DNA from: Haliotis rufescens
Taxonomy: Eukaryota
Direction: 5' to 3'
NCBI RefSeq assembly: GCF_023055435.1
Contig: NW_025963857.1
Location: forward strand, 1,116,001 to 1,180,000
Length of the DNA stretch: 64,000 bases
In this document: positions 4,784-40,132 of the stretch, piece after piece
Position numbering within the stretch: position 1 is the first letter of the stretch
Layout: every line of letters starts with the position of its first letter
Position numbers and translations under genes: made by a program
The notes under the pieces: generated by a model
Database searches by the model: none
What the model was told of the DNA's origin: nothing
Seen by the model: the letters and a program-made list of their open reading frames with translations, nothing else

Positions 4784-6013
4784 CGAGGGGTGGCTACAAA
4801 GATCTGAGGCAGCATATTTCTGAATATTTCTGCAGGCATCAAATAGTCTCGGTATTCTCTGCTGATGAAAAGTGTGTAACTGCACTGTTATCAAAGATCT
4901 CCATCTGAAAGGGCTAACTTCAACAGCCATCCATGCGCACATTGTGTGAACTTTAAGGGATGCTGATTCTTCCTTTGCCACTGTTAAATGGTAGGCAGCG
5001 GAGATAAAGGCGGGAACAGAGAGCTTTGCAAATAATCCAAGATCAGGAATACTTCAACTGCCATAGCTAATGAAAGTGTTGAAAAAATCCATGATGTGGT
5101 TATGGAGGATCGAGGAATAACCACACGCCACATAGCCAAAACGGTAGGCATCTCCGATGAGAGAGTTGAGAACATTCTGGGGAAGAAACTGGGCATGACA
5201 AAGGTTTCTGCACACTGGGTTCCAAGGCTTCTGACTCCTGATCAGAAACACTCCAGGTTCATCTTCGTTCATGATTTGCGTCGTTTGGAAGCAGACCCTG
5301 CAGTACACACGGATGGGTCTTGGGTTCGCCACAACAGCAAGAAAACGAACAACAGTCAAAGTCTCCCCCTCTGTGCCTAGTGGTTAAATTGTTCGTCGTC
5401 ACGAGGGTTCGATTCCTCACATGGGTACAATGTGTGAAGCCCATTTGTGTCGTCCCCCGCCGTGATATATGCGAGGAGAAGTAAAACCATACTCACTCAA
5501 TCTTTCACTCTTTTCCTTCAAAGCAGGCAAAGCCTGTTCAATCAGCTAGGAAGGTGGCGGCTTCGGTTTTCAAAGGAATCCTTCTGATGGACTACCGCCC
5601 AAAAGGTCAGACCTTTAATGGCTGATATTATGCAAATCTGCGTGACAATATCGAAGCTAAACGCGCGTAAACAACTCACGAATACCCATGTGCACACATC
5701 TGTTGTTGCAATAGTTGCAATGAATGACTGTGGCTTTGAACTCATTGAAGATCCTCCGCACAGTCAGATCACAGCCTCTTCCCAAACGTTAAGAAAAATA
5801 TGTCCGGCGAGAATTATGCAAATGTCGTCATATTTCCTCTTGGGGACTTTTTACACCACCAAGGGGAGGTCTTCTACACAAGCGGGATCCAGACACTCCG
5901 TTGTCGTTGGTAGAAGCGTGTGGACGACGAAGGGGATTATGTTGAAAACTGGCAACCAACTCGACCAACGCCGTCCGTCACACTTAAACTCAGAACTTTC
6001 CAGCCACCCCTCA
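4784..6013 (+). mobile_element. Decayed mariner (Tc1/mariner) DNA transposon
   Basis: ~25-bp TIRs cgaggggtggctacaaagatctgag / ctcagaactttccagccacccctca flanked by TA at 4782-83 and 6014-15. Transposase remnants DRGITTRHIAKTVGISDERVENILGKKLGMTKVSAHWVPRLLT (HTH plus WVPHEL-like motif) and IEDPPHS (YSPDL region), with many stops and frameshifts. Confidence 0.9.
5370..5500 (+). mobile_element. Degenerate tRNA-derived SINE inserted in the mariner
   Basis: ggttcgattcc B-box, core catgggtacaatgtgtgaagcccattt shared with 13527-13696, and an actcactc tail. Confidence 0.7.
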
Positions 6014-6124
6014 TATTCATATCGACCCTTTGGAGGTACACTGTCATTTTCTTACACACCGAGTGCTGCAATCTCCTGTTACCTTGATTCGTAAATTCGT
6101 GATTCTTCTCCAAAATTCCAATGT

Positions 6125-19184: not shown

Positions 19185-21323
19185 ATGGCAGTGCACCGAC
19201 AATTGACAGACAACTTCTTGACGTGCAGCATCTGCATGGACGTCTTTGATGTTCCCTGTACACTTGTGTGTTATCACACATTTTGTCGGAAATGTGTCGT
19301 TAGCTATACTAAAACCAGACCAGAAGCCATCAGTGCCAAGTCTCTCCTCTGTCCATTCTGTCGAAAGATGACCAAAGTAGCCAACTCAAACAGGCCAGTT
19401 GAAGAGTGGGCACAGGAAGTGAAACCCAGTTTTTTGATTCAGGGTCTCTTGGATTCATTTAATCCCAAGACAAAAGGTATTTCCGAATAGGCTACCAGTG
19501 TTGAACTCATCCTAACATAGCTACGTTGTTCATATCCCGGGTTTGTGAATTCCTCGTATGTACATTGAAAGGTTAAAGGTTATTTCGTAATATTATAGTT
19601 CTTGTGTTGAAAAATAACTGACACATTTGTATGTATACTTGCAGATACCCCGAAGTGCATCCTATGTAGTGATGAAGGAGCGGCACCTCCAGCCACTGCT
19701 TGGTGTGCTGACTGTGACATCAGTCTTTGTGAGGGATGCCAGAAGGCTCACAGACGTATTCCTGCCACTCGTCACCATGACGTATCTGACCTGTCCACAG
19801 AGGTCAAAATCAACCAAAGACGCAAACCATTCTGTAAGCAACATCCAGATCAAAGCATGCAGTTCTACTGCAAAGATTGTAAGAAACTGCAATGTCAATC
19901 CTGTTGCATCCTGTATCACAGAAAGTGTGAGGCAATTCTACCGTTTGAATCTGTTATGCCAGAACTGATCAGCTGTGTTACAGGAGTTAAGGAAAGACTA
20001 GCGTCTCATTTACAAGCAACAGACAGTTTGCTAACAGAATTAGAAACCAAACGGACTGAGGTAATAAAGAACAGAGTCACCGTTCAGTGTCAGATCCGAT
20101 CTACAATCCAGACAGTCACAGAAGCCATAAAGAAGAAGCAACGACAACTCTTGGACCAACTGGATGACGCCACTGAGAAACATATCGAGCGACTGAAAAC
20201 TGAAATGAAGTCTGAAGAGATGGCCAAGCAGATGATAAGTCATCACTCTGTGATGATAGACAGAGCTCTGGAGTCTGGAAGTGAAATGGACATCTATGAG
20301 ATATACCTTTGGTGTGAGTCAGAGGAGTTTCCTACAGTATATGACCCAGATTCAGATATAAAATATGAACTGAGGGAGAAAGTATGTTTTAAGCATGATT
20401 GTGAAGAGATGTGTAACAATATACACGAGGTAAGCTTTGGTGAAATTGATACCATATATGAAGATGTGTTTGATTCTACATCGACATCAGTTCTGCACGA
20501 CACAGTCGACACACAAACAGAAGATGAGACAAGTTTACCTCATGTTTATGACGTGGCAGTGTTCAATGAAGGCGGTACAGACACCATAGTTGTAACTGAT
20601 AATAACAACAAGTGCGTCAAATCCTTCTACACACGCAATACTCAACCCTGTCAGAGTAAGCTCTCTGTTCAGAGCCCCCCTCGGCGGATTGCAAAACTTA
20701 ATGCCCATCACATGGCTGTGACCCTTCCCGAGACAAGGGAGATAATACTAATTGAAGTGACCCCTGACCTTGTTCTCCAATCATACATTTCAACGAGGAA
20801 GAAGTACTTTGGTCTGACGGCCCTGACACCGACTACCCTGGCAGCAGGATCCGGGTCGCCTCCCTGTGTGGACATCCTGGACATGGCGGGGAATGTGTTG
20901 AGGACGCTGAATCGTGTCACAGATGGGGGAACCCTTGTATCAGATCCTTTATTCCTATCTACCACCAGTCAAGGTTACATCCTGGTGTCATGCAGTCATG
21001 CCCCAAGAAGTCATGTGCTATGTATGACACCAAACGGAGATGTTGTGTTTAATTATGTACCCACAGGACAACATCGAGCAATGAATCCATGCGGCATCAC
21101 TGGAACAAACACAGGCGACATGCTTGTTGTTGACGACATGTCAAACAAAGTGGTTCATTTGAGTAGTTCAGGCACATGGTTGAGAGACGTACTGACGTCA
21201 AGCGATGGCATCACTTTCCCTTATGGTCTGTACTTTGATAAGCGGAGGCGTCTGTATGTCACCAACCGCCACTGTGTGATGGTCTACAGGTTCATAACAC
21301 GCACCAAACCAAGATGTACATGA
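19185..21323 (+). CDS. TRIM-A1: intact RING-Bbox1-Bbox2-coiled coil-NHL-like E3 ligase, 656 aa; exons 19185-19476 and 19645-21323
   Basis: C3HC4 RING (CSIC...CYHTFCRKC...CPFC), phase-1 GT-AG intron, B-box1 CILCSDEG...WCADCDISLCEGCQKAHRRIPATRHH, B-box2 CKQHPDQSMQFYCKDCKKLQCQSCCILYH, heptad-rich segment, and propeller blades (PCGITGTNTGDMLVVD; FPYGLYFDKRRRLYVT). No internal stop. The ATG directly follows an acceptor AG, implying a non-coding 5' exon. Confidence 0.93.
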
Positions 21324-21899
21324 AGGTGAATGAACGACTGATGGTTTTGTATAGATCTCCCTTTGAATAGTGTTTCAGTTATATAACGAGATTGAGAAAC
21401 ACAACCAGTGTGAAGCCAATGTAGGCGTGTTTACTCCTACTTCCGGGGTCCGATGACTGACTGTGTTCGATCCTGATGATGAGATGATGATAGATGCACA
21501 GGGGCGCAAGCGCATTGTTATGAAACAATATGTTTACGAAAAAATACTTATTTCTAAGGAAAAATAAAATCATTTTGTTCTGCTGTGTCCCTTTTGTATT
21601 GACATGTGCATACAATCTATTGTATTTACAGTGTTGTTTAATTTTGCAATTTATCGTTCGGTTGTTATGAAGTTATTCGATTACTTCCATTTCTTTTATA
21701 AGGGGATAAAACGAGGCTGACAGGTTGGACGGTAGGTTGATTAACGTCGCACTCAACACTCTTCTAGCTACAAGACAAACAAATCACTAATACCTCACGG
21801 ATCTGTATCCAACGGAGTCAAACTGTCACGTCAAAATGAGAAAAGCTTCATTTCTTCATAACACCTTAATATATTTGTCACTTATTGCTACAGTTTACT

Positions 21900-22112
21900 G
21901 TTTGTTGGTTGGTTGGACGGTTGGTTCATTAACGCCGCACTCAACACTCTTTAAGCTACAAGACGGCGGTCCAGTGGTTAACATCGTGACCATCTATCGA
22001 TTGGAATACGGTGACATGCATCAACCAAGTCAGCAAGCCTGACCACCCGATCCCGTTTGTCGCCTCATACGACAAGCATTGGTTTCTGAAGATTCAAACA
22101 CGGATCTTCCTG
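21900..22112 (-). mobile_element. SINE-like interspersed repeat (also ~35018-35235; degenerate relative ~48255-48450)
   Basis: Minus strand reads gaagatccgtg...cttgtcgtatgaggcgacaaacgggatcgggtggtcaggcttgctgacttggttga...gagtgcggcgttaa with an (aacc)n tail. Confidence 0.65.
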
Positions 22113-24178
22113 AAGGCGCGGGTGGGGGTGGTCGTAAAGGAGGGGTAGACTAGTAGTTAAAGCTTGGCTTCTCACGCCAGAAGCATGGGTCTTAGTGCCC
22201 GCATGGATACAATGTATAAAGCCCATGTCTTACTCTGCCAAACATTCAAACAGTTGATGACGTCACTGTTGTTCCCGACAACGAAACACGGGTGAAAACT
22301 GAACCATAACACCTCGCATTGAGAGTCAAAACAGAATCTGAGAAGCAATAAACACAAATACCCCTGGTAAATCAAATGTGAAATTAAAGATTGGACATTG
22401 TCATATGTAATTGGTGACCTTTTTATTGAAACATAGCTGCCATTAGAGAAACTACAGCCTGCTTCTACGCGGATGTCGCACTTGCATCTATAGGTTTAGC
22501 AGTCTTAATCACAAGTCTATTCTGCGCCAAATAAACGGTTAAAAATAAGATATGGAAACATTTGCCATTTATATTTGTATGGCCTAGGCAGAATATTATT
22601 TCGAGAACAAAGACATATATGCTATGTAGGATTCTGTTGGCAATTCACGACACATCCGTAACCAACATATACCGTTTTACCGATTGAAACAAACTGATAA
22701 TTTAGAGAAATATCCTTTGGGCAACGAGGAAGTACGTGTTATCTGTCCCCAGTGGTATATAGTGAGTTCAGAGCCTTGGCGAGGTACTATTACTGTCCAT
22801 GAAACGGATGTATTTCTGTAAACTATTTTCTATATTTCTGATAGATAACCATGGCATTCACGACTGTTTCGTGAGATTATAAGTATGTCGGCAGTGTTGT
22901 GGTCGGTGTCGACGAACAGACATATTAGCTCAGATTTTCTAAACTTGTCCTTGGATGAATGAACAAAACAGCATCAATATATATGGAAACAATATGTATT
23001 TGTAAGTAACGGGGTCACATGAGATTTTAACCGCCATTTCTCCCTTTACATCACACAGCGTTAATTGATGTTTGTTATGAAGACATACGTCGTGTTCCAC
23101 GAAAAGAACCAAGCGCTGAAACGATCCCTTTTCACATCGTAGAACGGGTTCCATAGTGGTGTGGTGTGTTTTATGTATTCATTTAAATAAGAAAGACAAT
23201 CTGTACAAAGGTAGTGACAGCACTTTTATTATGACAGAAATGTAAACACACGGATATGCATGTACATGTTAACAAATACACTTAAACTGACAGGAAGTGG
23301 TTAATGGTTTAAATATCAGAGTTTTATTGTATTTAAAAAATATATAATTATATACTTCACGGGGCAATAAGGCTTTAGTTTTCAGCAGTCGCCCGAAATC
23401 CGCCCTCCCCTCCCCTCCCCGCTAACTTAAATATACACGTAATACATGCACATTCAATAACGGAATATTTGTTTGACGGGTGACAATTCCAGTTATGTGC
23501 ATTCATTGTTCACGTACACCACATTGATGTCTCCCAGCTCCACATCAATGTCAGACACAAACATCGCGAACACCTGGTGTGGGCACAATAAAACTGCGCA
23601 CCCCCCAACCACTGCCTCACATAATAGTTCTTAAACGTTCTTCTTTCTTTTAAGAAGCAGAATCGGTGCACTTAATTCGTAGGTTAAAATTAACGGGTGA
23701 CAATTCCAGTTCTGTGCTGGCAGAATCAGTGCCCTTAATTCGTAGGTTAAAATAAACGTATCGGTTTTATTAGTTTCAACAAAATCAGTTCATCCACTAA
23801 CGTGTCACTGGATATTCTGGTTCATCGATCACTTGATTGTCTGGTTTGTTTACAGGCCGCCGTCTCACGATACGAGTACAGCTGTGCCGCGTCAGGGACA
23901 AATACTTCCTTTGTCATGAAAATTGTGTGAATGGCGAGTGCTACCGATAGGGCCGGACATGCTTACCCTTTTCGCGAACACCTGGTGTCATCACTCAGTA
24001 TCAGTGGTCAATTTATATAAATTTCATAACTTTTTTGCACTTCACGTCAAATTTGTATCTGTTTCGGCGGACAGTCTAGACTGATTGTTCTCTTGTATTG
24101 GAAATTCATATTTACATAAACTATTGTCACTCAGATGGTGACGGATTCTATCATGAACAATCGTTATGCTTCCACATC

Positions 24179-27028
24179 TTAGGTGTTTCTTGTAAATCTG
24201 TACATCTTCACACAGTCATCATCGGTGACATACAGGTGCTGACTTTCACACAGGTAGAGACCTTGCGGATATGTAATACCATCACGTGACGTCAACACTT
24301 TCCTCACAAACGTCCCAGAAGCGCTGAGTTGAATCACACATTTTGCATTGTCATCTATAACCAGGATATGTCCTGTGTTGGTTTCAGTGATTCCAGCAAA
24401 GAAAGGCCACTGCTGTGTAGGATGATACCAGAACACAACATCTCCATGAGGAGTCAGACAGAGGACACTGCGAGCTCCGTTTACACAGCAAGACACGAGG
24501 ATGTTACCCTGCCTGGTGGTACTGAGGTAACAAGGATCTGATACAAGTTTCCTTCCATCTGTGACAGGAACTAGGATCTTCAACACATTCCCCGTCATGT
24601 CCAGGATGTCCACACAGGGAGGATCCACGGATCCTGCTGCCAGGGCTGTCGGTGTCAGGGATATCACACCGTGGTACCCCTTCCTTGTCGAGATGGTTGA
24701 GTGAAGAACCAGCTCAGGCTTCACTTCTACTATTATTATTTTCTTGTCAGGGAGAGTCACAGCCATTTTATTGTTGTTTATTTTCGCAATACGTCGAGGG
24801 GCGCTTTGTAACCCCAGCTTACTCTGACATGACTTCTTGCTTCTTTTGTAGAAGGATTTCACACAATTGTTGTAACAATCTGTGACAACTATAGTGTCTG
24901 TGTTGTCTATAACAAACACTGCCACGTCAAGAGCATTGGGTTTCTTCTCATCATCTTCTGCCTGTATGTCCACTGTGTCATACAGAACTGCTGTAGATAT
25001 AGAATCAAACACATCTTCAACAATGATATCAACCACACCAATGTGTAGATCGTTTAGTTCCTCACACATCAGCAGACGATTATGTAGAAAACAAGCCTTG
25101 CCCCCAGATACATCCTCCATACCTGACTCCGGGACACACACAGTGGCTGCCTCCTCCGACTCACTCCACAGATACATCTCACAGATGTCCACGTCACTCT
25201 CAGACTCCAGAGCTCTGCCCAGCAACTCCGAGTGTTGACGAATCATCTGCCTGGCCATCTCCTCACGCTTCATGTCCCCTTTCAGCTGTCCTATTTGTTT
25301 CTCTGTGACGTCATCTATTTGTTCCAGGAGTTGTCTTTCCTTCTTCTTTATCAAGTCAATGGCGGTGTGGGTTGCTGATCGGACCTGAGACTGAAGGCTT
25401 GACTTGTTCTTATTAATTTCAGTACATTGTGCTCCCTTCTTTGCAAGGCGAGTGTTTGATGTTGCTAAATCAGACTCTAGTTTCTGTTTTACAGATTGAA
25501 GAGTGTTTTGCATTTCAGGCAACACAGACTCAAGCGAGACAATGGACTCACATTTTCTGTGATACAAGGTGCAACACGATTGACATTGTAGTTTCTAACA
25601 GTCCTTGCAGTAGAACTGCATCCTCTGATCTGGATGTTCTTTACACATAGGTTTGCGTCTTTTCTTCACCTTGACATCCCTTGACAAGTCAGATACGTCA
25701 TGGTGACGGGTGGCAGGGATACGTCTATGTGCCTTCAGGCATCCATCACAGAGCTAGACATTACATTCGACGCACCAAGCATTGGCTGGAGTTGTCTCCC
25801 CGTCCTCATCACATAAGTTGCAGTTATTTGTTCCTGAAAAGAAATTTGCACATGTATTATGCTGACATAGATAATATCTAAGGTGGTGTACAGAGAAATA
25901 TAGGTTCTATTAGGATGCACTGAGAAAGTGCTTCACATGAATAGGAAATATGAATATAAGAGCACCTATTTGCGTCATCTTTATAAAGACATTTATCCTT
26001 TCCTTTATCAGTACCCATTTAAGGGGCACCAGTGATGCAGTCTTCTAAATCTGCATGCCTGCATCCCTCAAATCCCAGAGTCACCCTCATTATGTTTCAT
26101 GGTATGTCGGTACCATTCTTGTGCTCGTGGGTTTACCCAAAGTGACATTTGACATCGGATCAAGTTTTCCACACTCATCAAACTGACACGCGATGCTATA
26201 ACTGGAATACTCAAGTACACATTTCACGTTTAGGTTGGTTCATTTTGGAATTCCAACATAGAAAATACAGTACCTGTTAAAAAAATGTACCTTTCAACTG
26301 GCAATAAAAAAACCTACAAGCAGCACTCGTCTTTAAAAGCTTACAAGTTTTGCGAAGACATGTTAGAATGTCACTAAAAATATAATTCTATTAACTTGAA
26401 AATTACAAAATTAAGTTAATACAACAATAAATTGAAAAATGAATTTTTGTGTTCGCATGCAATATTAAAGGCGTTAATATTACAGTGTCATTGTGACTAG
26501 ACAAGGTCAATAACATTACTTCAAAATCATGAGAATCAATAATTTGTCTCAGAAGCAGGATTGACTGCGGGTCTAATAGTGTGTCACTGAAAGAAATGAC
26601 AGAGATATTCAAGTAATGTTAGGACAAAAACGAGTCTGTCATAGATGGGTAAATACTGTTGCCTGAGTTGAAGATGAATTAAAACTATATGGATTGAGTG
26701 GAAGTCCAACCACCATGGTCTGGTGTACACTTATACCTTGACTGCAGGGAGCGAAGGAATCCATGAGACCCTGAATCAAGAAGCTGGGTTTCACCTCCTG
26801 TGCCCACTCTTCAACTGGCCTGTTTGAGTCGGCTACTTTGGTCATCTTACGACAGAATGGACAGAGGAGAGACTTGGCACTGATAGCTTCTGGTCTGGTT
26901 TCAGTGTAGCTAACGACACATTTCTTACAAAATGTGTGATAACACAAAAGTGTACAGGGGTCATCAAAGACGTCCATGCAGATGCTGCACGTCAAGAAAT
27001 TGTTTGTCAATGTCTTGTGCATCGCCAT
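24179..27028 (-). pseudogene. TRIM-B1: RING-Bbox-Bbox-CC-NHL-like gene with two nonsense codons; exons 27028-26737 and 25833-24179
   Basis: Same 292-nt RING exon and phase-1 intron position as A. In-frame TAG at 25756-25754 (B-box1; TCG/TCA in B2/B3) and 25597-25595 (B-box2; GAG/AAG in B2/B3). The downstream 462 codons remain open. Confidence 0.88.
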
Positions 27029-28290
27029 CTGTAATAGTAAAACATATTTATGAACAAACAATTTTAGATTTTGACCCTTTTGTGAATTACATATTTTCAG
27101 TTGAGGTGAAGTGAAAGATTTATCATCATAATTTTAAGTAATGACTTGTCCAGCTCCAACAAAGCTACACTAACACTGAGACAGACCAATACATCGTCTT
27201 TGAAATATTTTATTACACATAAGATTTCTCTCTTCTTAAATAAAAACAATTAATTTTACTGATGCTGATGTCATAGGGATTGTTAGAGCTGTCTAGAACT
27301 GTTTTAATATAAAACTAGATAGGTTTGGCTTTTATAAAATGCATATATTCCACAGTAATTGTGCATATTCAAGACTACTTTAATAGTGGAACATTATCTT
27401 CTAATTGTAATTTGACATAAGTTTGCCATCTTTTTCTGGACTCCGTTATAGCTCACGTGATTTTTTTTATTGAAAGTGGCATTGTGCAAATATTTTAAGA
27501 GAACTTAGATTTTGTACAAGTTGATGTACAAATGATGTCAAAACGTATAATTAGAAAATAGTATCTAAATCACTAGTTTTACCACAATGGACATGTAAAC
27601 AAATTTTGCAAAATATTGCACAGAATCCATAATAATATATTTGTTCATTTGTTATGCTCTGAGAACTTGTAACAACCCGGCCTTTGGCCTCACCCGTATC
27701 ATGAAAACATACTGATTGATTTGTTTACTGATTGGTTGGTTGGTTGGTTGGTTGGTTTCAGGACATCGCAAGTTTATGACAAGTTTCAGTATTGTGTAAC
27801 ACCCCATGCATGAACCACCGCAAGCTCAATAATGTTAAAACGTTCGTAAAATGCTTATATATGGACATGACTCATTCCAGTACATTTGCATAACGAAAGT
27901 AGAATCTTTGATTCTGTTGGCTGACCCAGGGAGGGGTGGGGGGGTGTCAAAGGTCCCCCTCCTCTTTCTTTTAAAGACAAATTGTGTAGGCATTAAACTT
28001 ATCTGAACGAGGATTTGGATATGTTGGACCCCTCCCCGGAAATGGTTGATCCGCCCTTCTAGTCTAGGAATAGATGGACTCGTGTTGTGTAAATAACACT
28101 GACATCTGTTGCTTTAAATAAAAACAAGTTTTGACAATGGATCTGGATCTATATTGCTGACACTTTGCTGATGCAACGTTCAAAATAAACTATAACTAAA
28201 TCTTATAATAAAGCACACGCAGAGACTATACGACCATGTACAACCAGGAAGTATGAAGCTATTTTCACCCCTTCCATACACCTGTGGCAT

Positions 28291-28398
28291 GTCACACTCA
28301 TCAAGTATATACGGGACGTCGCACTGATCAAGTATATACGGGACGTCACACTCATCAAGTATATACGGGACGACACACTGATCAAGTATATGCGGGAC
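28291..28398. repeat. 27-bp VNTR upstream of TRIM-B: 4 copies here, 3 at 41415-41495, 2 at 53299-53352
   Basis: Unit gtcacactcatcaagtatatacgggac, counted directly in each unit. Confidence 0.92.
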
Positions 28399-28435
28399 GT
28401 CAAACAAACTTCCATGTTGCCAATGCTCCCATTAC

Positions 28436-28790
28436 CTTTACTTGTCAGTGGTTTAACCTCTCATTCTTCCAGTCTGCCTGACGCCATGTCGACTGTGTCC
28501 TGGCGTGTCGAGGGGCGGGTCGGTCAACTGCTATGCGTTATCTGATGCACACATACTGGTATCCAGCCTAGTCACTGCAGGTGAAACACTGATAGCGACT
28601 GACATGCAGGGACGCGTCCAGTGTATACTCCACAACAGTGTTTCGTTTTCCTGATGTTTGTTTTTGTCGTCTATTTATTGTTCATCAGTGTATCTGTAAT
28701 TTTTTGAACTATTTGAAAGAATTGACTTATTCGATTCCGATATGATCATCCTACATTTCCTATACATGAATCACATGAGTCAAAAGTAAT
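28436..28790 (-). promoter_or_regulatory. Candidate non-coding first exon and promoter of TRIM-B
   Basis: AG|GTAAT donor at 28436/28435, conserved in B1-B3. ISRE-like GAAAACGAAAC at 28650-28640 (one substitution each in B2 and B3). AP-1 TGAGTCA at 28776-28782, conserved in all three. Confidence 0.35.
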
Positions 28791-29522
28791 GTAAAGAATA
28801 TTTGATACCATTCAGTTTGGCTCAGTTCCCCACTGGGAGCACAGTTGTGTAAGGCGCGTAATAGACTGTGCAGAGTTGCTTCCCTTAGACCATGCCTGAT
28901 GTCGTTAGTTCGGATCACAGATTCGCCCTGATTGTTTCTAGGGTTGTCAGCACAATACCTGTGCACGTGGGTTTCACCACAGTTGCAAACGTCTATTAAC
29001 TACATCGGGTCTGACCACAAACACTCTGCCGGCGTGATGTAACTGAAATACTGTTAATTAAGCGCTGTTAAAGTCTTTCAGCGAGTGAGTTTTGGTAAAC
29101 TTTGAAAGCTGTTTCAGTTAAACAGGTGGGGAAACTACAGGCACGGGCATGGTGCGGGCAGCAAAAACATCATAATCAAGGCAAAGCTGGAATTCCGCAC
29201 AGCAACTCTGCACAGCTATCTTTTTGAGCCTTGGATCCTTTGGCAGCGTCATAGCACAACCAACACGTTAAAAGATAACACTTGTTGTTTCCCTGCCTGG
29301 CGCTCGATGTTTAGGGAATAAAACAAGGAGTGACTGGTTCGGTTTCATTACACTGCACGCGGGTATCCATTACAAACTGCAGTAAAGTGCTTCCCTTCCC
29401 CCCTCTCCCATCTACACCCCCCCCCCCCCCCCCCATTGTCATTTAATATGTGTTTACAGCAACAAATCTCGCAGTGCAGACTCTATGCGTCCCTCCTCTT
29501 CTCGGTACAGATTCCAAGACGC

Positions 29523-29659
29523 TCAGCACAAGTTGCAGAAGCAGGCACAGTTGGCGGACGCCCAGTCTTTGTACTCTGGCGCACACGAGTGAGGGTAGGA
29601 GTCACAGTTGCTCCACTTGTCGACACAGGTCGCCGGCAGCGCGTGACGTACTGTTGCCC
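29523..29659 (-). pseudogene. Orphan terminal exon encoding an ShKT domain
   Basis: Acceptor ctgccag, phase 1, then ATVRHALPATCVDKWSNCDSYPHSCAPEYKDWASANCACFCNLC*. ShK spacing is C-x6-C-x6-C-x11-C-x3-C-x2-C, with an extra Cys where the 55-kb copy has Arg. Upstream exons are absent here. Confidence 0.8.
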
Positions 29660-31685
29660 CTGGCAGTGAAACAGGATGACATTGAAACACTAGGATTACG
29701 AAATACTTGTAGACATTGTACTTGGTAAAACTCACCAGCACATTATATACACGCTATAAAGTATACACTACACCCCACACGTTATTTATTCTACATTAAA
29801 CAGTGATATAAACCTGCAGCCCAAACAAACTTTACAAATTTATAAATGAAATTGCAATAAATTAAAAACACAAGTTCAAACTAAATCAATGTAAACACAT
29901 CGTCCAAACAATGCTCTATGCAGAAAGTGATTCACGTCCACACGGGTTGTACTAGTATGTAAGGGCAGCTTGTGGTCACCTTGGTTTACAAGGGTTCATT
30001 TTTGTAAATTATTAACACATCTATGTCTTTCAATAATTGTACCCTCTTTGAGCTTACTATTGACGGCCGTAGGTTTTTTTATGAAACTGCATGTGGAGAT
30101 ATGAGCGACGCTCACGTTTTCGGTCACCAGAATGCATTACGTCATAAAAAATGTTGCAATTCTCATGATACCTGACGTAAACAATACAAATCAATATTTG
30201 AACCGATAGACAAGCAGCTACATCATAATGTCGTCATTAAGTTTTATTGACTGCTCTTTGAACAATAATTCAGGAATATAACTGCTAATCAGCTTATTGT
30301 CTGAGAATGGGCCCTGTTTGTAACTTATAGTAATTTTAATATTGAAATATACATACCTTCACACGATAGTCGCCCAAATTACAACATGCGCTTCAACATC
30401 CACTAGCATTCCTTTGTTTCAGGATATTTGGTAAAGCATTTAAACCCTTTCGCAAAATGGAATCGTTTGCATGAACTCAAAAGTTGAACTTGTAAATACT
30501 CAGTTTGATTGAATTCCCGACATATTACAACACTTCCGCCCACCAAACATCGCCTCAGGTGCAATATGTGTGCAGTCATACAAAAAACATGCACAATACA
30601 AATGTTATACTGCATTTATTATCGATATTGCAACATATGGTGACCAACTAGCTCAGAAAGTCGTTATGTACACAATACACTTAGTTGTGTGAGAGCGTTT
30701 ATGAGCAGCCTGTGTCAGTGAACAGCCTCGCCTCTTACAATACCGAGACAGACAGTCAGTCCAGCAGAATGGTTGGAGGAGACATCTGACGAAGCTAAAG
30801 GTATTTTCTTGATTACCGAGCAAGTATGTTGTCTGGTGCTACATCATAGTGAAGTGGTATTTTGTGGTAGTTTCTGTGTCGAGGTATAATTTCTGTTTGT
30901 TGTATTGTACATTGTCTTCCTATTGGACAGCATTTTCTGACATTACTATTAGTGACACAGGACTGAAACTGGATCATCAGGATCATGTTTACAGCTCTTC
31001 TTAACATGTATCAATCAATACTTCAATTACAAACATCTGACTGTCTTGCAAACCATGCCAGGTGCCTTTCATTGACAATATCTATGTACAAATATTATTT
31101 TCATAACATTATCTCAATAATCATTGGTCATGTTTATGTTTTCATAGCAACTGAGACTGTCTCCATGGTCTAGTTGATAGAGTGCCTGGCCAGACAGCAG
31201 AAGTTCTGTGGTCCGATCCCCGGCCACTTCATAAACAAGTCTGATCCTCGGCATTAAGGAGCTAAGACAAGAACTGGTCGGCTTGGAGTCAGCATATTGT
31301 GTCGGAGTGTAGTATTCATGTTAAAGGGGCACGGGTGGCCCAGTCGTCTAAGGCGCCGTGATTCGCTGTGCACAGTTGCGTCCCTTGGGCACGTCAGAAA
31401 CCTATGATTGTTGGTTCGAATCCCGGTTCGCCCAGATTATGTTTCTAGGATTGTCAGCACCATATCCATGCTGGTGGGTTTCACCGAAGTGGTAAACGTA
31501 TGAGACCTGCATCACTTCGGGCTTTCCTCCCACATTAAGCTGACACGCTGTGGTATAACTGTAATACTGTTAAAAGCGGCGTTAGACCCAACTCACTCAC
31601 TCACTTTTGATGTTAAACTGCGGCATGGTGTCTCAATGCATTATGGGCTAGCACCATGAAACCGTCATTAATTGAGTACAAGCAG

Positions 31686-31771
<86 letters not shown>

Positions 31772-32234
31772 TACACATGCATCCAATAAACACACAGACA
31801 CACACGTGCACCTTAAGGGATTCGCGCAATAACGCAATAACGCAATAACGCGTTCCAAAACATAACTTTGTCTTTGTATTGTGGAGTGATTATTTGGGAA
31901 CTGTGAAATGAAACTGAGCTATTTTCAAGCATTAATAGTTTCATCCACAAAACTGTAACTCACGAACTGAGCTCTCACTTACTGACCGCTTTTATATGTT
32001 GTTCAACATTGTTGTAATTGATAGGCATTGGAACATGAACATGTGTCGGAGGAACATGAGCACATAACAAACTACTTCATGTCTTTAAAGATCGTTGTAT
32101 CATATCTACTCTCTGTGAGTTCATTATTGATTAAACTGCCCGTATATCAATCAAAAACAAAAATGGGTTCTTATGGATGAAAAGGTGTATGATGTTAAGC
32201 TGAGAATGCCAATATTTTTATTTTAACATTTTAG

Positions 32235-34374
32235 ATGGCAGTGCACCGACAATTGACAGACAACTTCTTGACGTGCAGCATCTGCATTGACGTCTTTGAT
32301 GACCCCTGTACACTCGTGTGTTATCACACATTTTGTCGGAAATGTGTCGTTAGCTACACTAAAACCAGACCAGAAGCCATCAGTGCCAAGTCTCTCCTCT
32401 GTCCATTCTGTCGAAAGATGACCAAACTAGCCAACTCAAACAGGCCAGTTGAAGAGTGGGCACAGGAGGTGAAACCCAGCTTTTTGATTCAGGGTCTCTT
32501 GGATTCATTTAATCCCAAGACAGAAGGTATTTCCAAATAGGCTACCAGTGTTGAACTCATCCTAACATAGCTACGTTCTTCATATCCCTGGTTTGTGAAT
32601 TCCTCGTATGTACATTGAAAAGGTTAAAGGTTATTTCGTAATATTATAATTCTATTGTTGAAAAATAACTGACACATTTGTATGTATACTTGCAGATACC
32701 CCGAAGTGCATCCTATGTAGTGATGAAGGAGCGGCACCTCCAGCCACTGCTTGGTGTGCTGACTGTGACATCAGTCTTTGTGAGGGATGCCAGAAGGCTC
32801 ACAGACGTATTCCTGCCACTCGTCACCATGACGTATCTGACCTGTCCACAGAGGTCAAAATCAACCAAAGACGCAAACCATTCTGTAAGCAACATCCAGA
32901 TCAAAGCATGCAGTTCTACTGCAAAGATTGTAAGAAACTGCAATGTCAATCCTGTTGCATCCTGTATCACAGAAAGTGTGAGGCAATTCTACCGTTTGAA
33001 TAAGTTATGCCAGAACTGATCAGCTGTGTTACAGGAGTTAAGGAAAGACTAGCGTCTCATTTACAAGCAACAGACAGTTTGCTAACAGATTTAGAAACCA
33101 AACGGACTGAGGTAATAAAGAACAGAGTCACCGTTCAGTGTCAGATCCGATCCACAATCCAGACAGTCACAGAAGCCATAAAGAAGAAGGAACGACAACT
33201 CCTGGACCAACTGGATGACGCCACTGAGAAACACATCGAGCGACTGAAAACTGAAATGAAGTCTGAAGAGATGGCCAAGCAGATGATAAGTCATCACTCT
33301 GTGATGATAGACAGAGCTCTGGAGTCTGGAAGTGAAATGGACATCTATGAGATGTACCTGTGGTGTGAGTCAGAGGAGTTTCCTACAGTATACGACCCAG
33401 ATTCAGATATAAAATATAAACTGAGAGAGAAAGTATGTTTTAAGCATGATTGTGAAGAGATCTGTAACAATATACACGAGGTAAGCTTTGGTGAAATTGA
33501 TACCATATAGGAAGATGTGTTTGATTCTACATCGACATCAGTTCTGCACGACACAGTGGACGTACAAACAAAAGATGAGACAAGTTTACCTCATGTTTAT
33601 GACGTGGCAGTGTTCAATGAAGGCGGTACAGACACCATAGTTGTAACTGATAATAACAGCAAGTGCGTCAAATCCTTCTACACACGCAATACTCAACCCT
33701 GTCAGAGTAAGCTCTCTGTTCAGAGCCCCCCTCGGCGGATTGCAAAACTTAATGCCCATCACATGGCTGTGACCCTTCCCGAGACAAGGGAGATAATACT
33801 AATTGAAGTGAAACCTGACCTTGTTCTTCAATCATACATTTCAACAAGGAAGAAGTACTTTGGTCTGACGGCCCTGACACCGACTACCCTGGCAGCAGGA
33901 TCCGGGTCGCCTCCCTGTGTGGACATCCTGGACATGGCGGGGAATGTGTTGAGGACGCTGAATCGTGTCACAGATGGGGGAATCCTTGTATCAGATCCTT
34001 TATTCCTATCTACCATCAGTCAAGGTTACATCCTGGTGTCATGCAGTCATGCCCCAAGAAGTCATGTGCTATGTATGACACCAAACGGAGATGTTGTGTT
34101 TAATTATGTACCCACAGGACCACATCGAGCAATGAATCCATGTGGCATCACTTGAACAAACACAGGTGACATGCTTGTTGTTGACGACATGTCAAACAAA
34201 GTGGTTCATTTGAGTAGTTCAGGCACATGGTTGAGAGACGTACTGACGTCAAGGGATGGCATCACTTTCCCTTATGGTCTGTACTTTGATAAGCGAAGGC
34301 GTCTGTACGTCACCAGCCACCACTGTGTGATGGTCTACAGGTTCATAACACGCACCAAACCAAGATGTACATGA
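32235..34374 (+). pseudogene. TRIM-A2 with three in-frame nonsense codons; exons 32235-32526 and 32696-34374
   Basis: Colinear with A1, with identical exon lengths. TAA at 33001-33003 (TCT in A1), TAG at 33508-33510 (TAT), TGA at 34153-34155 (GGA). Confidence 0.9.
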
Positions 34375-37264
34375 AGGGTGATCTCGGTGAATGAACGAGT
34401 GAATGATTTTGTATAGGTCTCACTTTGAATAGTGTTTCAGTTATATAACGAGATTGAGAAACACAACCAGTGTGATGCCAATGTAGGTGTGTTTACTCCT
34501 ACTTCCGTGGTCCGATGACTGTGACTGTGTTCGATTCTGATGATATGATGATGATAGATGCACAGGGGGCGCAAGGACATTGTTATGAAACAATATGTTC
34601 ACGAAAAAATAATTTTTTTAAGGAAAAATAAAATCATTTTGTTCAGCTGTGTCCCCTTTTGTATTGACATGTGCATAAAAACTATAATATTTACAGTGTT
34701 GTTTAATTTTTCCATTTATCGCTCGGTTGTTATGACGTGATTCGATTACTTCCATTTCTTTTATAAGGGGATAAAACGAGGCTGACAGGTTGGACGGTAG
34801 GTTGATTAACGTCGCACTCAACACTCTTCCAGCTACAATACGGCCGTTTGTAGGTCCAGTGGGTGAGTGCGGCGATAAACAACAAACAAACAAACAAATC
34901 ACTAATACCTCACGAATCTGTATCCAACGGAGTCAAACTGTCACGTCAAAATGAGAAAGCTTCATTTCTTCATAACACCTTAATATATCAGTTACTTATT
35001 GCTACAGTTTACTGTTTGTTGGTTGGTTGGACGGTAGGTTCATTAACGCCGCACTCAACACTCTTCAAGCTACAAGACGGCGGTCTGAAGTTCCAGTGAT
35101 TAACATCATGACCATCAATCGATTGGAATACGGTGATATGCATCAACCAAGTCAGCGACCCTGACCAACCGATCCCGTTTGTCAACTCATACGACAAGCC
35201 TGGGTTTCTGAAGATTCAAACACAGATCTTCCTGAAAACGCGGGTGAGGGTGGTCGTAAAGGAGGGGTAGACTAGTAGTTAAAGCTTGGCTTGTCTCGCC
35301 AGAGGCATGGGTCCTAGTGCCCGCATGGATACAATGTATAAAGCCCATCTCTTTATCTGCCAAAGATTAAAACAGTTGATGACGTCACTGTTGTTCCCGA
35401 CAACGAAACACGGGTGAAAACTGAATCATAACATCTCGCATCGAGAGTCAAAACAGAATCGGAGACAAAGCAATAAACACAAATACCCCTGGTAAATCAA
35501 ATGTGAAATTACAGAATGGACATTTTCATATATAATTGGTGACCTTTTCATTGAAACAGAGCTGCCATTAGAGAAACTACAGCCTGCTTCTACGCGGATG
35601 TCGCACTTGCATCTATAGGTTTAGCAATCTTAATCACAAGTCTCTTCTGCGCCAAATAAACGATTAAAAATAAGATACGAAATCATTTGCCATTTACATT
35701 TGTATGATCTAGACATAATATTATTTCGAGAACAGAGACATATATGCTATGTAGGATTCTGTTGGCAATTCACGTTACATCCGTAACCAACAATTACTGT
35801 TTTACGGATTGAAACAAACTGATAATTTCGAGAAATAACCTTTGGGCAACGAGGAAGTACTGTTATCTGTCCCCAGTGGTATATAGTGAGTTCAGAGCCT
35901 TGGCGAGGTACCAATACTGTCCATGAAACGGATCTGTGAACTATTTTCCATATTTCTGATAGATAACCACGGCATTCACGACTGTTTCGTGAGATTATAA
36001 GTTTGTCGGCAGTGTTGTGGTCGCTCAGATTTTCTAAACTTGTCCTTGGATGAATGAACAAAACAGCATCAATATATATGGAAACCATATGCATTTGTAA
36101 GTAACGGGGTCACATGAGATTTTAACCGCCATTTCTCCCTTCACATCACACAGCGTTAACTGATGTTTGTTACAAAGACATGCGTCGCGTTCCACGAAAA
36201 CAACCAAGCGCTGAAACGATCCCTTTTCACATCGTAGAACGGGTTCCATAGTGTTGTGGTGTGTGTTATGTATTCATTTAAACAAGAAAGACAATCTGTA
36301 CAAAGGTAGTGACAGCATTTTTATTATGACAGAAATGTAAACACACGGATATGCATGTACATGTTAACAAATACACTTAAACTGACAGGAAGTGGTTAAT
36401 GTTTTAATTATCAGAGTTTTATTGTTTTTACAAATATATAATTATATACTTCACGGGGCAATAAGGCTTTAGTTTTCAGCAGTCGCCCGAAATCCGCCCT
36501 CCCCTCCCCTCCCTGCTAACTTAAATATACACGTAATACATGCACATTCAATAGCGGAATATTTGTTTGACGGGTGACAATTCCAGTTCTATGCATTCAT
36601 TGTTCACGTACACCACATTGATGTCTCCCAGCTCCACATCAATGTCAGACACAAACATCGCGAACACCTGGTGTGGGCACATTAAAACTGCGCACCCCCA
36701 ACCACTGTCTCACATAATAGTTCTTAAACGTTCTTCTTTCTTTTAAGAAGCAGAATCGGTGCACTTAATTCGTAGGTTAAAATTAACGGGTGACAATTCC
36801 AGTTCTGTGCTGGCAGAACAGGTGCACTTAATTCGTAGGTTAAAATTAACGTATCGGTTTTATTAGTTTCACGGAGCAGTTAATGCACTAAAGTGTCACT
36901 GGATATTCTGGTTCATCGATCTCTTGATTGTCTGGTTTGTTTACAGGCCGCCGTCTCATGATACGAGTACAGCTATGCCGCGTCAGGGACAAATACTGCT
37001 TTTGTCATGAAAATTGTGTGAATGGCGAGTGCTACCGATAGGGCCGGACATGCTTACCCGCGAACACCTGGTGTCATCACTCAATATCACTGGTCCATCC
37101 ATATAAATTTCATAACTATTTTGCACTTTACGTCAAATTTTAATCTGTTTCGGCGGACAGTCTAAACTGATTGTTCTCTTGTATTGGAAATTCACATTTA
37201 CATAAACAATAGTCAATCAGATGGTGACGGATTCTATCAGGTACAATCGTTATGCTTCCACATC

Positions 37265-40132
37265 TTAGGTGTTTCTTGCAAATCTGTAGATCTTCACACA
37301 GTGACCATTGGTGACATACAGGTGCTGACTTTCACACAGGCAGAGACTATACGGAGATGTAATACCATCACGTGACGTCAACACTTCCCTCACAAACGTC
37401 CCAAAAGCGCTGAGTTGAATCACACATTTTGCATTTTCATCTATAACCAGGATATGTCCTGTGTTGGTTTCAGTGATTCCATGAAGGAAATTCCACGTCT
37501 GTGTAGGCTGATACCTGAACACAACATCTCCGTGAGGAGTCAGACAGAGGACACTGCCAGCTCCGTATTCCCCGCAAGACACGAGGATGTTACCCTGCCT
37601 GGTGGTACTGAGGAACCAAGGATTTGATACAAGTCTCTCTCCATCTGTGACAGGATCCAGGGTCCTCAACACATTCCCCGCCATGTCCAGGATGTCCACA
37701 CAGGGAGGAAACACGAATCCTGCTGCCAGGGTTGTGGGTGTCAGGGATGTCAGACTGCAGTACCCCTTGCTTGTAGAGATGGATGATTGAAGAACCAGCT
37801 CAGGCTTCACTTCTACTATTATTATTTTCTTAGTGTCAGGGAGAGTCACAGCCATTTTATTGTTGTTTAATTTTGCAATGCGTCGAGGAGCGCTTTGTAC
37901 CCCCAGCTTACTCTGACATGACTTCTTGTTTCTTTCGTAGAAGGATTTCACACACTGGTTGCCATCATCTGTGACAACTATGGTGTCTGTGTTGTCGACA
38001 ACAAACACTGCCACTTCAAGAGCAATGGGTTTCTTCTCATCATCTTCTGCCTGTATGTCCACTGTGTCATACAGAACTGCTGTTGATGGAGAATCAAAAA
38101 CATCTTGAACAATGATATCAATCACACCCAAGTGTAGATCGTTTAGTTTCCCACACATCAGATGACGATCGTGTATGAAACAAGCCTTGCCCCCAGATAC
38201 ATCCTCCATAGCTGACTCCGGGACACACACAGTGGCTGCCTCCTCCGACTTACTCCACAGATACATCTCACAGATGTCCATGTCACTCTCAGACTCCAGA
38301 GCTCTGCCCAGCAACTCCGAGTGTTGACGAATCATCTGCCTGGCCATCTCCTCACGCTTCATGTCCCATTTCAGCTGTCCTATTTGTTTCCCTGTGACAT
38401 CATCTATTTGTTCCAGGAGTTGTCTTTCCTTCTTCTTTATCAAATCAATGGCGGTCTGGGCTGCTGATCGGACCTGAGACTGAAGGCTTGACTTGTTCTC
38501 GTTAATTTCAGTACATTGTGCTTCCTTCTTTGCAAGGCGAGTGTTTGATGTTGCTAAATCAGAGTCTAGTTTCTGTTTTAGAGATTGAAGAGTGTTTTGC
38601 ATCTCAGGCAACACAGATTCAAGTGAGACAATGGACTCACACTTTCTGTGATACAAGATGCAACACGATTGACATTGTAGTTTCTCACAGTCCTTGCAGT
38701 AGAACTGCATGCTTTGATCTGGATGTTCTTTACACATAGGTTTGCGTCTTTTCTTCACCTTGACATCCCTTGACAAGTCAGATACGTCATGGTGACGGGA
38801 GGCAGGATTACGAACATGGGCCTTAAGACATCCACCACACAGCGAGACGTCACAATCAGAACACCAAGATGTAGCCAGAGTTGCCTCCCCGTCATCATCA
38901 CACAAGTTGCAGTTATTTGTTCCTAACAAGACATATACATATGTATTATGTTGACATGGTTTATATCTAAGGTTGTTTACAGAGAAATATAGGTTCTATT
39001 AGGATGCACAGAAAGTGCTTCACATGAATAGGAAATATGAATATAAGAGCACCTATTTGCGTCATCTTTATAAAGACATTTATCCTTTCCTTTATCAGTA
39101 CCCATTTAAGGGGCACCAGTGACGCAGTCTTCTAAATCTGCATGTCTGCATCCCTCAAATCCCAGAGTCGCCCTCGTTATGTTTCATGGTATGTCGGTAC
39201 CATTCTTGTGCTCGTGGGTTTCACCAAAGTGACATTTGACATCGGATCGAGTTTTCCACACATATCAAACTGACACGCTATGCTATAACTGGAATAATCA
39301 AGTACGCATTTCACGTTTAGGTTGGTTCATTTTGGTTTTCCAACATAGAAAATACAGTACCTGTTAAAAAGAATGTACCCATGAACTGGTAATAAAAAAC
39401 CCTACAAGCAGCACTCGTCTTTAAAAGCTTAAAGGTCATTCTTGCGAAGACATGTTAGAATATCACTAAAAATATAATTGTATGAACTTGAAAATCACAA
39501 AATTAAGTTAATACAACAATGAACTGAAAATTGTGTTCGTATGCAATAATAAAGGCGTTAATATTACGTGGCATTGTGACTAGACAAGGTCAATAACATG
39601 ACTTCAAAATCATGAGAATCAATAATTTGTCTCAGAAGCAAACGTGAAAATATGTTAGAGGATTGACTGCAGGTCTAATGGTGTGCCACTGAAAGAAATG
39701 ACAGAGATATTCAAGTAATGTTAGGACAACAACGAGTCTGTCATAGATGGGTAAATACTGTTGTCTGTGTTGAAGATGAATTAAAACTATATGGATTGAG
39801 TGGAAGTCCAACCACCATGGTCTCTGGTGTATGCTTATACCTTGACTGCAGGAAGCGAAGGAATCCAAGAGACCCTGAATCAAGAAGCTGGGTTTCACCT
39901 CCTGTGCCCACTCTTCAACTGGCCTGTTTGAGTTGGCTACTTTGGTCATCTTACGACAGAATGGACAGAGGAGAGACTTGGCACTGATGGCTTCTGGTCT
40001 GGTTTCAGTGTAGCTAACGACACATTTCCGACAAAATGTGTGATAACACACAAGTGTACAGGGGTCATCAAAGACGTCCATGCAGATGCTGCAAGTCAGG
40101 AAATTGTCTGTCAATGTCTTGTGCATCGCCAT
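37265..40132 (-). CDS. TRIM-B2: intact RING-Bbox1-Bbox2-coiled coil-NHL-like E3 ligase, 649 aa; exons 40132-39841 and 38922-37265
   Basis: RING exon with G|GTATAA donor, acceptor ttgttag, and an uninterrupted exon-2 frame with both B-boxes, coiled coil and propeller blades ending RFARNT*. Confidence 0.92.

What the first reader, a model, noticed from the sequence alone, without database searches (positions are those of the whole stretch)
19185..40132. RING exon homogenised between inverted, otherwise diverged A and B paralogs
Seen: A1 and B2 differ at only 2 of 86 residues from L7 to F92 and share nearly all synonymous positions (e.g. ccatcagtgccaagtctctcctctgtccattctgtcg.aagatgaccaaagtagccaactcaaacaggccagttgaagagtgggcacagga). 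The exon ends (VHRQ/MHKT, NPKTK/ASCSQ), the introns (168 vs ~900-1000 nt, unalignable) and the coiled coils are strongly diverged. Smaller near-identical patches cover B-box2 (MQFYCKDCKKLQCQSCCILYHRKCE) and the blade segment LTPTTLAAGS..CVDILDMAGNVLRTL. The T-E-T variant is shared by A3/A4 and all B copies. Inference: ongoing inter-paralog gene conversion, possibly aided by fold-back pairing of inverted neighbours, keeps the E2-binding module identical while the ligand modules diverge.
Basis: partly seen in the sequence, partly recalled or inferred. Interest (0 to 1): 0.72.

Follow-up and report, generated by a model that had tools for sequence, protein, structure and literature searches.

The report
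Gene conversion homogenises abalone TRIM exon
In an abalone array of back-to-back pairs of two long-diverged ubiquitin-ligase-type genes, one exon is almost identical between the two types even at silent positions, likely because DNA repair repeatedly copies it from one gene to the other; this is a known process, seen here alongside a partner gene whose predicted binding surface varies rapidly.

Summary
The RING observation is real. The window starts a tandem array of inverted A/B TRIM-NHL gene pairs (A1 equals a Haliotis rufescens RefSeq protein). In codons 14-82, A and B differ at 0.073 of silent sites, like A versus A (0.086), against 0.47 in exon 2. Other paralogs predict about 12 silent differences; 1 is seen. 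A orthologues of H. rubra and H. asinina group with A in exon 2, yet their RING is further from A1 (76, 71 of 86) than B2's (84). Repeated transfer is indicated by staggered tract edges, an A-type segment inserted in B4, and a B-type N-terminus on H. cracherodii A. Not supported: the B-box2 patch (protein conservation only) and fold-back pairing of neighbours. The blade patch is borderline, and tree tests of intermingling are not decisive (p-AU 0.07, 0.21). Likely cause: the strongly conserved exon alone stayed similar enough to keep converting. Extra result: B's propeller has 28 hypervariable codons on one face; A has none. Domain-restricted conversion is known (SIGLEC11/16, zebrafish NLR-B30.2). 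Two look-ups found no earlier scan note of this.

The parts
19185..19476 (+). A1 RING exon (292 nt, starts exactly at ATG after an AG acceptor, phase-1 donor)
   Evidence: Pfam RING
19224..19430 (+). Homogenised core of A1 (codons 14-82), no fixed A/B difference among 14 A and 12 B copies
19477..19644 (+). A1 intron, 168 nt, not alignable to the B intron
19645..21323 (+). A1 exon 2: two B-boxes, coiled coil, NHL propeller; open frame; spliced product equals P0001
19833..19928 (+). B-box2 of A1: conserved as protein, silent sites diverged from B (not a conversion patch)
20835..20903 (+). Blade patch codons 495-517: borderline candidate for an older, short conversion tract
24179..25833 (-). B1 exon 2, stops at codons 124 and 177
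26737..27028 (-). B1 RING exon; A-type letters at nt 34 and 39 (tract reaches further 5' than in B2 and B3)
27694..27719 (-). 3' end of a B 5'-UTR exon (GT donor follows), spliced onto the ATG exon in a transcript contig; also at 40813-40838 and 52710-52735
32235..32526 (+). A2 RING exon
32696..34374 (+). A2 exon 2, stops at codons 200, 369, 584
37265..38922 (-). B2 exon 2, open frame; NHL propeller 37295-38032 whose DA/BC-loop face is hypervariable among B copies
39841..40132 (-). B2 RING exon; core 39887-40093
44284..44575 (+). A3 RING exon; carries B-type letters at nt 30 and 180
44740..46424 (+). A3 exon 2, one-base frameshift
49176..50833 (-). B3 exon 2, stop at codon 573
51739..52030 (-). 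B3 RING exon
58384..58675 (+). A4 RING exon
58843..59889 (+). A4 exon 2, 630-nt deletion, frameshift and stop
63661..64000 (-). 3' end of B4 exon 2; B4's RING exon lies just beyond the window (G000:C79 about 1182230-1182886) and holds the inserted A-type segment

Best explanation
The core of the RING exon is nearly identical, silent sites included, between two old, inverted TRIM-NHL paralogs, likely because recombinational repair has repeatedly copied it between A and B without exchanging the flanks (interlocus gene conversion). Shown: the tract, its sharp limits, silent-site identity, the older age of the A/B split, mosaic exons. Inferred: strong purifying selection kept this one exon similar enough to pair while introns and most of exon 2 drifted too far apart, so conversion is self-sustaining there; the unalignable introns on both sides confine tracts to the exon and make its first and last 15-20 bases the least often converted; unequal exchange among the 13-14 kb units then spreads the converted exons through the array. 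Transfer went both ways, with more A-to-B cases visible here. Any copy can likely serve as donor; no preference for the neighbour is seen.
For: Silent divergence A-B 0.073 in codons 14-82, A-A 0.086, exon 2 0.470, coiled coil 0.410. No fixed difference in codons 14-82. Class majorities differ silently at 1 of 66 codons against 104 of 326 in exon 2 (Fisher p 5e-9). Control: in 78 of 120 pairs of 16 other paralogs the core/exon-2 ratio has median 0.58, predicting 12.2 differences, P(1 or fewer) 7e-5; with the lowest control ratio 6.0, p 0.018. Exon-2 tree: A groups with H. rubra and H. asinina proteins 100/100; A+B as a clade rejected, p-AU 6e-6. RING: A1-B2 2 differences, A1-orthologue 10 and 15, against 221 versus 127 and 147 in exon 2 (Fisher p 0.0015, 0.00015). 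Recurrence: four 5' edge patterns among 12 B exons at nt 30/34/39; B4 holds A-type intron from -333, A-type ATG and exon, then returns to B, with B flanks on both sides and 14 mismatches plus 3 gaps to the closest of 14 A copies; H. cracherodii A (P0123; 119 of 125 coiled-coil residues as A1) begins with B-type MAMHKT, and its RING is 84 of 86 identical to its B; all 5 core sites variable in both classes share both alleles, against 17 of 47 in exon 2 (p 0.01).
Against: AU tests do not reject separate A and B RING clades (DNA core p 0.073; protein, A orthologues together, p 0.207). The number of core sites variable in both classes is not itself in excess (p 0.16). nt 180 is T in 12 of 12 B and 3 of 14 A, which one donation from an A3-like copy would also give. 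Extremes of the A-B ratio (max 0.41 of 168 pairs) overlap the control minimum 0.28. No listed contig of 8 public runs bridged the B4 junction (piece tables were cut). No B orthologue from H. rubra or H. asinina was listed, so the four-way species test is missing. The H. cracherodii evidence is an annotated protein; its DNA was not seen. Non-reciprocity is not observable from one assembly; close double crossovers give the same picture.
Confidence: 0.8

Rival explanations
1. One old event replaced B's RING exon core with A's before the A-B unit was amplified; nothing is ongoing.
For: A-B core divergence is about that among units; AU tests do not reject an A|B split; nt 180 is nearly diagnostic; both species with A and B show the tract.
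Against: Staggered edges at linked sites in B1, cB3, cB4, cB6, the A-type insert confined to B4 and the B-type start of H. cracherodii A each need a further transfer after amplification or speciation.
Confidence: 0.1
2. Conversion is real and is favoured by selection, because A and B work together and need interchangeable RING domains (shared E2, mixed RING dimers), with A as constant partner and B as variable sensor.
For: A and B stay paired in all 7 units of C79; both are spliced in one transcript run; NHL amino-acid to silent change 215:58 in B, 54:45 in A (p 1e-5); TRIM2/TRIM3 RING heterodimers are active (PMC9732051, passages read).
Against: Positions 3-6, aligned to the start of TRIM2's dimer helix alpha1, stay class-specific in this species; A orthologues exist in two species with no listed B; pairing can follow from the duplication unit alone; only 4 of 14 A and 3 of 13 B copies have an unbroken frame (my reading). 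This adds to, and does not replace, the best explanation.
Confidence: 0.2
3. Purifying selection alone keeps the RING exon alike.
For: The exon is the most conserved part family-wide and its silent rate is about 0.5-0.6 of exon 2 in controls. This does explain B-box2.
Against: A versus other paralogs differs at 0.58 of core silent sites; expected 12, seen 1; orthologues are further than the paralog.
Confidence: 0.03
4. Assembly chimerism or collapse produced the shared exon.
For: Repetitive array; B4 junction not seen in 8 runs; whether C5 is a second locus or another haplotype is unresolved.
Against: Each exon has its own variants; H. cracherodii proteins show the same pattern; transcript contigs join RING exons to A-type and B-type exon 2.
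Confidence: 0.02

Closest known systems
SIGLEC11/SIGLEC16 (PMC5701461; abstract start and 3 passages read)
   Same: Oppositely oriented neighbours about 9 kb apart; conversion limited to part of the gene; conversions reported in each primate lineage.
   Different: There a ~2 kb tract with upstream DNA homogenises the ligand-binding exon of one gene pair. Here a ~0.2-0.27 kb tract inside one exon homogenises the catalytic module while the ligand domain diverges, in an amplified array of pairs.
Zebrafish NLR-B30.2 family (PMC4852459; 12 passages read)
   Same: Large immune-type family; conversion acts differently on domains, inferred from silent divergence and discordant trees; positive selection in the recognition domain.
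   Different: Cross-group conversion there affects the recognition domain (B30.2), not the effector domain; no fixed inverted pairs are described in the passages read.
Conversion confined to constrained coding DNA in yeast duplicates (Fawcett and Innan 2011, PMC3924837; 8 passages read)
   Same: States the mechanism adopted here: purifying selection keeps similarity, which likely raises conversion efficiency, while non-coding DNA escapes.
   Different: There whole coding regions; here a single exon of a 650-residue gene.
TRIM clusters with recombination: rodent Trim5 (PMC6677749, 5 passages) and zebrafish btr (PMC3137616, 8 passages)
   Same: TRIM arrays with species-specific clustering or recombination breakpoints.
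   Different: Conversion is offered as one option for whole genes, or breakpoints lie in B30.2; no RING-restricted tract in the passages read.
TRIM-NHL proteins TRIM2, TRIM3, TRIM32, TRIM56-like
   Same: RING best matches TRIM2/TRIM3/TRIM56 structures; propeller matches TRIM2 NHL, TM 0.81.
   Different: Two B-boxes, no filamin hit, 18-19% identity in the propeller; abalone-specific expansion (all named rows are Haliotis).

Membership tests
Domain-restricted interlocus gene conversion | Silent sites homogenised in a bounded tract, beyond what constraint explains | tested here: met
   1 of 66 vs 104 of 326; control expects 12.2
Domain-restricted interlocus gene conversion | Paralogs within a species closer than orthologues between species, only in the tract | tested here: met
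   protein level only: 2 vs 10 and 15 differences; exon-2 tree p-AU 6e-6
Domain-restricted interlocus gene conversion | Flanks not exchanged | tested here: met
   all 26 ordinary exons and B4 keep class-specific flanks on both sides
Domain-restricted interlocus gene conversion | Repeated events (mosaic edges, shared variants) | tested here: met
   edge patterns, B4 insert, H. cracherodii A start; shared alleles 5 of 5 vs 17 of 47, modest
Domain-restricted interlocus gene conversion | Tree of the tract significantly rejects separate paralog clades | tested here: inconclusive
   p-AU 0.073 and 0.207
Domain-restricted interlocus gene conversion | Non-reciprocal transfer | not testable with these tools
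   needs products of single meioses or pedigrees
Fold-back (intrachromatid) conversion between inverted neighbours | Adjacent A-B pairs more alike than non-adjacent ones | tested here: not met
   23 adjacent pairs 0.0361, 61 others 0.0358; 6642 of 10000; shuffling of units could erase a signal
TRIM-NHL proteins | C3HC4 RING followed by B-box(es) | tested here: met
   Pfam PF00097, PF00643
TRIM-NHL proteins | Coiled coil after the B-boxes | tested here: inconclusive
   only a sub-threshold PML_CC hit in B2 (E 0.0025); assigned by position
TRIM-NHL proteins | C-terminal six-bladed NHL propeller | tested here: met
   model pLDDT 93; best match TRIM2 NHL E 1.4e-12, TM 0.81
TRIM-NHL proteins | Filamin domain as in TRIM2/3/71 (recalled; not in all members) | tested here: not met
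   no filamin hit at E 0.01
TRIM-NHL proteins | E3 ligase activity | not testable with these tools
   inferred from the RING only
Paired sensor/partner genes (plant NLR pairs, recalled) | Fixed head-to-head linkage and asymmetric variability | tested here: met
   B to next A 4.2-6.4 kb; 28 hypervariable B codons, none in A's propeller
Paired sensor/partner genes (plant NLR pairs, recalled) | Physical and functional dependence of the two proteins | not tested
   no complex prediction or assay was run

The most novel reading that the evidence does not exclude
The A-B unit is an animal paired-sensor system: a constant TRIM-NHL (A) and a rapidly diversifying one (B, variable on one propeller face) that co-assemble, with recurrent conversion selected to keep their RING domains interchangeable, so that the pair, not the gene, is the unit of amplification and function.
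Probability: 0.15. Interest if true: 0.78.

Novelty: new member of a known kind. Interest (0 to 1): 0.5.

Why it matters
It is an unusually clean natural case of conversion confined to one short exon between genes that are otherwise about 30% diverged, with dozens of copies, visible tract edges and one transfer caught with a non-homologous end. It offers a test bed for how constraint sustains conversion, warns that RING-based trees and short-read mapping mislead in invertebrate TRIM arrays, and points to B's propeller face as a candidate fast-evolving recognition surface in abalone. If A and B act as an obligate pair, it would be a paired-receptor design not found for TRIMs in my searches.

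Tried and rejected
B-box2 as a conversion patch: rejected. Neighbour preference: no signal. Blade patch: four window sizes gave 4914, 675, 953 and 989 of 20000; 5 residues in 489-518 are shared by A and B against both A orthologues, but such sites occur throughout exon 2; left as borderline. Shared-derived-residue counting across species did not discriminate, because the rubra/asinina branch is longer. Bootstrap labels may have shifted on re-rooting, so only topology and lengths are used. B4 junction in public runs: no listed contig bridges it in 8 of 8 runs laid; short contigs and cut tables make this uninformative. No holder on record as RNA was listed; two runs guessed as RNA, of one study, showed spliced joins. 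C5 as haplotype of C79: the upstream unique flank has one hit in the genome and flanks do not match C5:560001-720000 apart from repeats and one block inside the array; unresolved. B orthologues outside two species: none among 10 hits. No complex prediction was run: A and B RINGs are nearly the same sequence and TRIM coiled-coil dimers would tend to pass by likeness. Rows dropped: L036 of 17 paralog loci (incomplete exon match); B4's exon from class counts; cA4 from the AU test and one polymorphism count; unalignable tails of cA3, cA5, cA6, B5, cB5 masked. Literature: 10 searches listed no paper on this array or on RING-restricted conversion; subscription papers and supplements were not seen.
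Full report
Setting. Self-comparison shows a 12-14 kb unit repeated from about 17 kb onward. Each unit holds two genes in opposite orientation, A (+) and B (-), tail to tail, with B head to head with the next A at 4.2-6.4 kb. The array has 7 A and 7 B on contig C79 and 7 A and 6 B RING exons on contig C5, plus one B exon 2 without a RING match. Both genes have a RING exon of 292 nt that begins exactly at the ATG, a phase-1 intron, and one large exon with two B-boxes, a presumed coiled coil and NHL repeats. The spliced A1 product equals P0001, labelled Haliotis rufescens. A model of the B2 C-terminal domain (pLDDT 93) matches the TRIM2 NHL propeller (TM 0.81). By my reading, only 4 of 14 A and 3 of 13 B copies have an unbroken frame; inside the finding A1 and B2 are open, B1 and A2 carry stops. 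Contigs of two runs guessed as RNA (one study) show A-type and B-type exon 1-exon 2 joins, read by eye, and joins to upstream UTR exons that end at GT donors.

Observation. A1 and B2 match at 84 of 86 residues from L7 to F92, 60 of 125 in the coiled coil and 157 of 249 in the propeller. Over 14 A and 12-13 B copies, codons 14-82 hold no fixed difference, while 20-codon windows of exon 2 hold up to 23. Silent divergence in the core is 0.073 between classes, 0.086 within A and 0.037 within B; in exon 2 it is 0.470 between classes. Class majorities differ silently at 1 of 66 comparable core codons and 104 of 326 in exon 2; the 45-codon identical run was matched by 0 of 20000 shuffles. B-box2 differs silently at 7 of 29 codons (p 0.41 against the rest), so it is protein conservation. 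The blade run (495-517) is borderline (678 of 20000).

Is it selection alone? The RING exon is the most conserved part across the family (69-78% protein identity to 17 other paralog loci, against about 42% for exon 2), so a control was needed. In 78 of 120 pairs among 16 of these paralogs (exon-2 silent difference above 0.25) the core/exon-2 ratio has median 0.58 and minimum 0.28; A-B pairs have median 0.10 and maximum 0.41 of 168. The median predicts 12.2 silent differences where 1 is seen (p 7e-5); the minimum predicts 6.0 (p 0.018). A differs from the other paralogs at 0.58 of core silent sites, so these sites are free to change.

Age of the split. H. rubra P0002 and H. asinina P0003 group with A in the exon-2 tree (100/100), and forcing A and B together is rejected (p-AU 6e-6). 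Yet in the RING A1 differs from B2 at 2 residues and from these orthologues at 10 and 15, the reverse of exon 2 (221 against 127 and 147; p 0.0015 and 0.00015). The exon was therefore homogenised after those species split. The RING protein tree alone does not reject an orthologue clade (p-AU 0.207), and no B orthologue was listed for these two species.

Once or repeatedly? At the 5' edge the 12 ordinary B exons show four patterns at nt 30, 34 and 39: fully B-type in 8, A-type at 34 in cB3, at 34 and 39 in B1 and cB4, at all three in cB6; A3 has the B letter at 30, and A3, cA4 and cA6 the B letter at 180. All 5 core sites variable in both classes share both alleles, against 17 of 47 in exon 2 (p 0.01), though 5 such sites is not itself an excess (p 0.16). 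B4, just beyond the window, reads B intron, 67 nt of B exon, then A intron from position -333, an A-type start and exon with a 7-nt deletion, then the B exon end and B intron; the left junction has 2 nt in common, the right lies in the shared core, and the insert has 14 mismatches and 3 gaps to the closest A copy. This fits one-sided strand invasion with end joining at the other side (inference from general knowledge of repair). It was not seen in 8 public runs, which is uninformative. In H. cracherodii the A protein starts with the B-type MAMHKT and matches its B at 84 of 86 RING residues but 61 of 125 coiled-coil residues, a transfer in the other direction, in an independent assembly. A and B mix in the best core tree and separate by long branches in the coiled-coil tree, but an A|B split is not rejected (p-AU 0.073). 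Adjacent pairs are no more alike than others, so fold-back pairing is unsupported.

Mechanism. Shown: a bounded tract, silent identity, older paralog split, mosaics in both directions. Inferred: conversion persists only where constraint kept similarity high, as proposed for yeast duplicates (PMC3924837, passages read), and the unalignable introns confine it. A selective need for identical RINGs is possible but unproven: positions 3-6 align with the start of TRIM2's dimer helix and stay class-specific here.

Among B copies the propeller has 215 amino-acid and 58 silent minimum changes, among A copies 54 and 45 (p 1e-5). Seven B codons have 5 or more amino-acid changes where 0.29 are expected if neutral (simple count, no codon model, recombination not modelled). 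The 28 B codons with 4 or more residues all lie in or next to the DA and BC loops (89 of 246 residues; boundary drawn after seeing the data); strictly, 22 of 28 lie in those loops and none in the 39 AB/CD loop residues. That this face binds ligand is recalled from NHL structures, not tested.

Comparison and verdict. Partial conversion between oppositely oriented neighbours is known from SIGLEC11/16, and domain-differential conversion from zebrafish NLR-B30.2 genes; there the ligand or recognition domain is shared across types, here the catalytic one. Ten literature searches listed no account of this array or of RING-restricted conversion in TRIMs; two look-ups of earlier scan notes found nothing on it. 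Verdict: real, a new and unusually well-resolved member of a known kind; interest 0.5.

Noticed in passing
L001:2230-2886 (G000:C79 about 1182230-1182886), just past the window end: B4 RING exon carries about 300 nt of A-type intron plus an A-type exon start: an A-to-B transfer with one non-homologous junction.
   Followed up: yes
B copies, propeller (window 37295-38032 for B2): 28 hypervariable codons on the DA/BC-loop face in B; none in A's propeller; suggests diversifying selection on B only.
   Followed up: partly
B copies, codons 113-140 (B-box1): Two deep haplotypes (7 and 6 copies, 0.245 apart over 101-140, 0.04 apart downstream), each closer to A in different sub-stretches; possibly older exchanges.
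   Followed up: partly
G000:C5:600000-688000: Second array of the same unit (92-97% alike), no matching unique flank found; second locus or divergent haplotype.
   Followed up: partly
L021-L037 (other clusters on C79 and C101): Some distant paralog pairs also have low RING silent divergence relative to exon 2 (for example L031-L037 0.107 vs 0.249); weaker exon exchange may be family-wide.
   Followed up: no
whole array: Most copies are broken (10 of 14 A, 10 of 13 B by my reading); several A deletions remove the coiled coil, some in frame.
   Followed up: no
window:53390-53417: A second B 5'-UTR exon end, found only upstream of B3 at up to 3 mismatches, is spliced to the ATG exon in one run: alternative first exons.
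   Followed up: partly
window:5036-5380 and 5588-6094: ORF fragments that look like a mariner-type transposase remnant (recalled likeness, not searched).
   Followed up: no
window:56488-56736 (-): Short Cys-rich ORF after a Thr-rich run, resembling an ShK-like domain exon (recalled pattern); similar DNA at 1674-1841.
   Followed up: no
window:3742-4083: Single-copy exon with a predicted membrane-spanning stretch, flanking the array.
   Followed up: no
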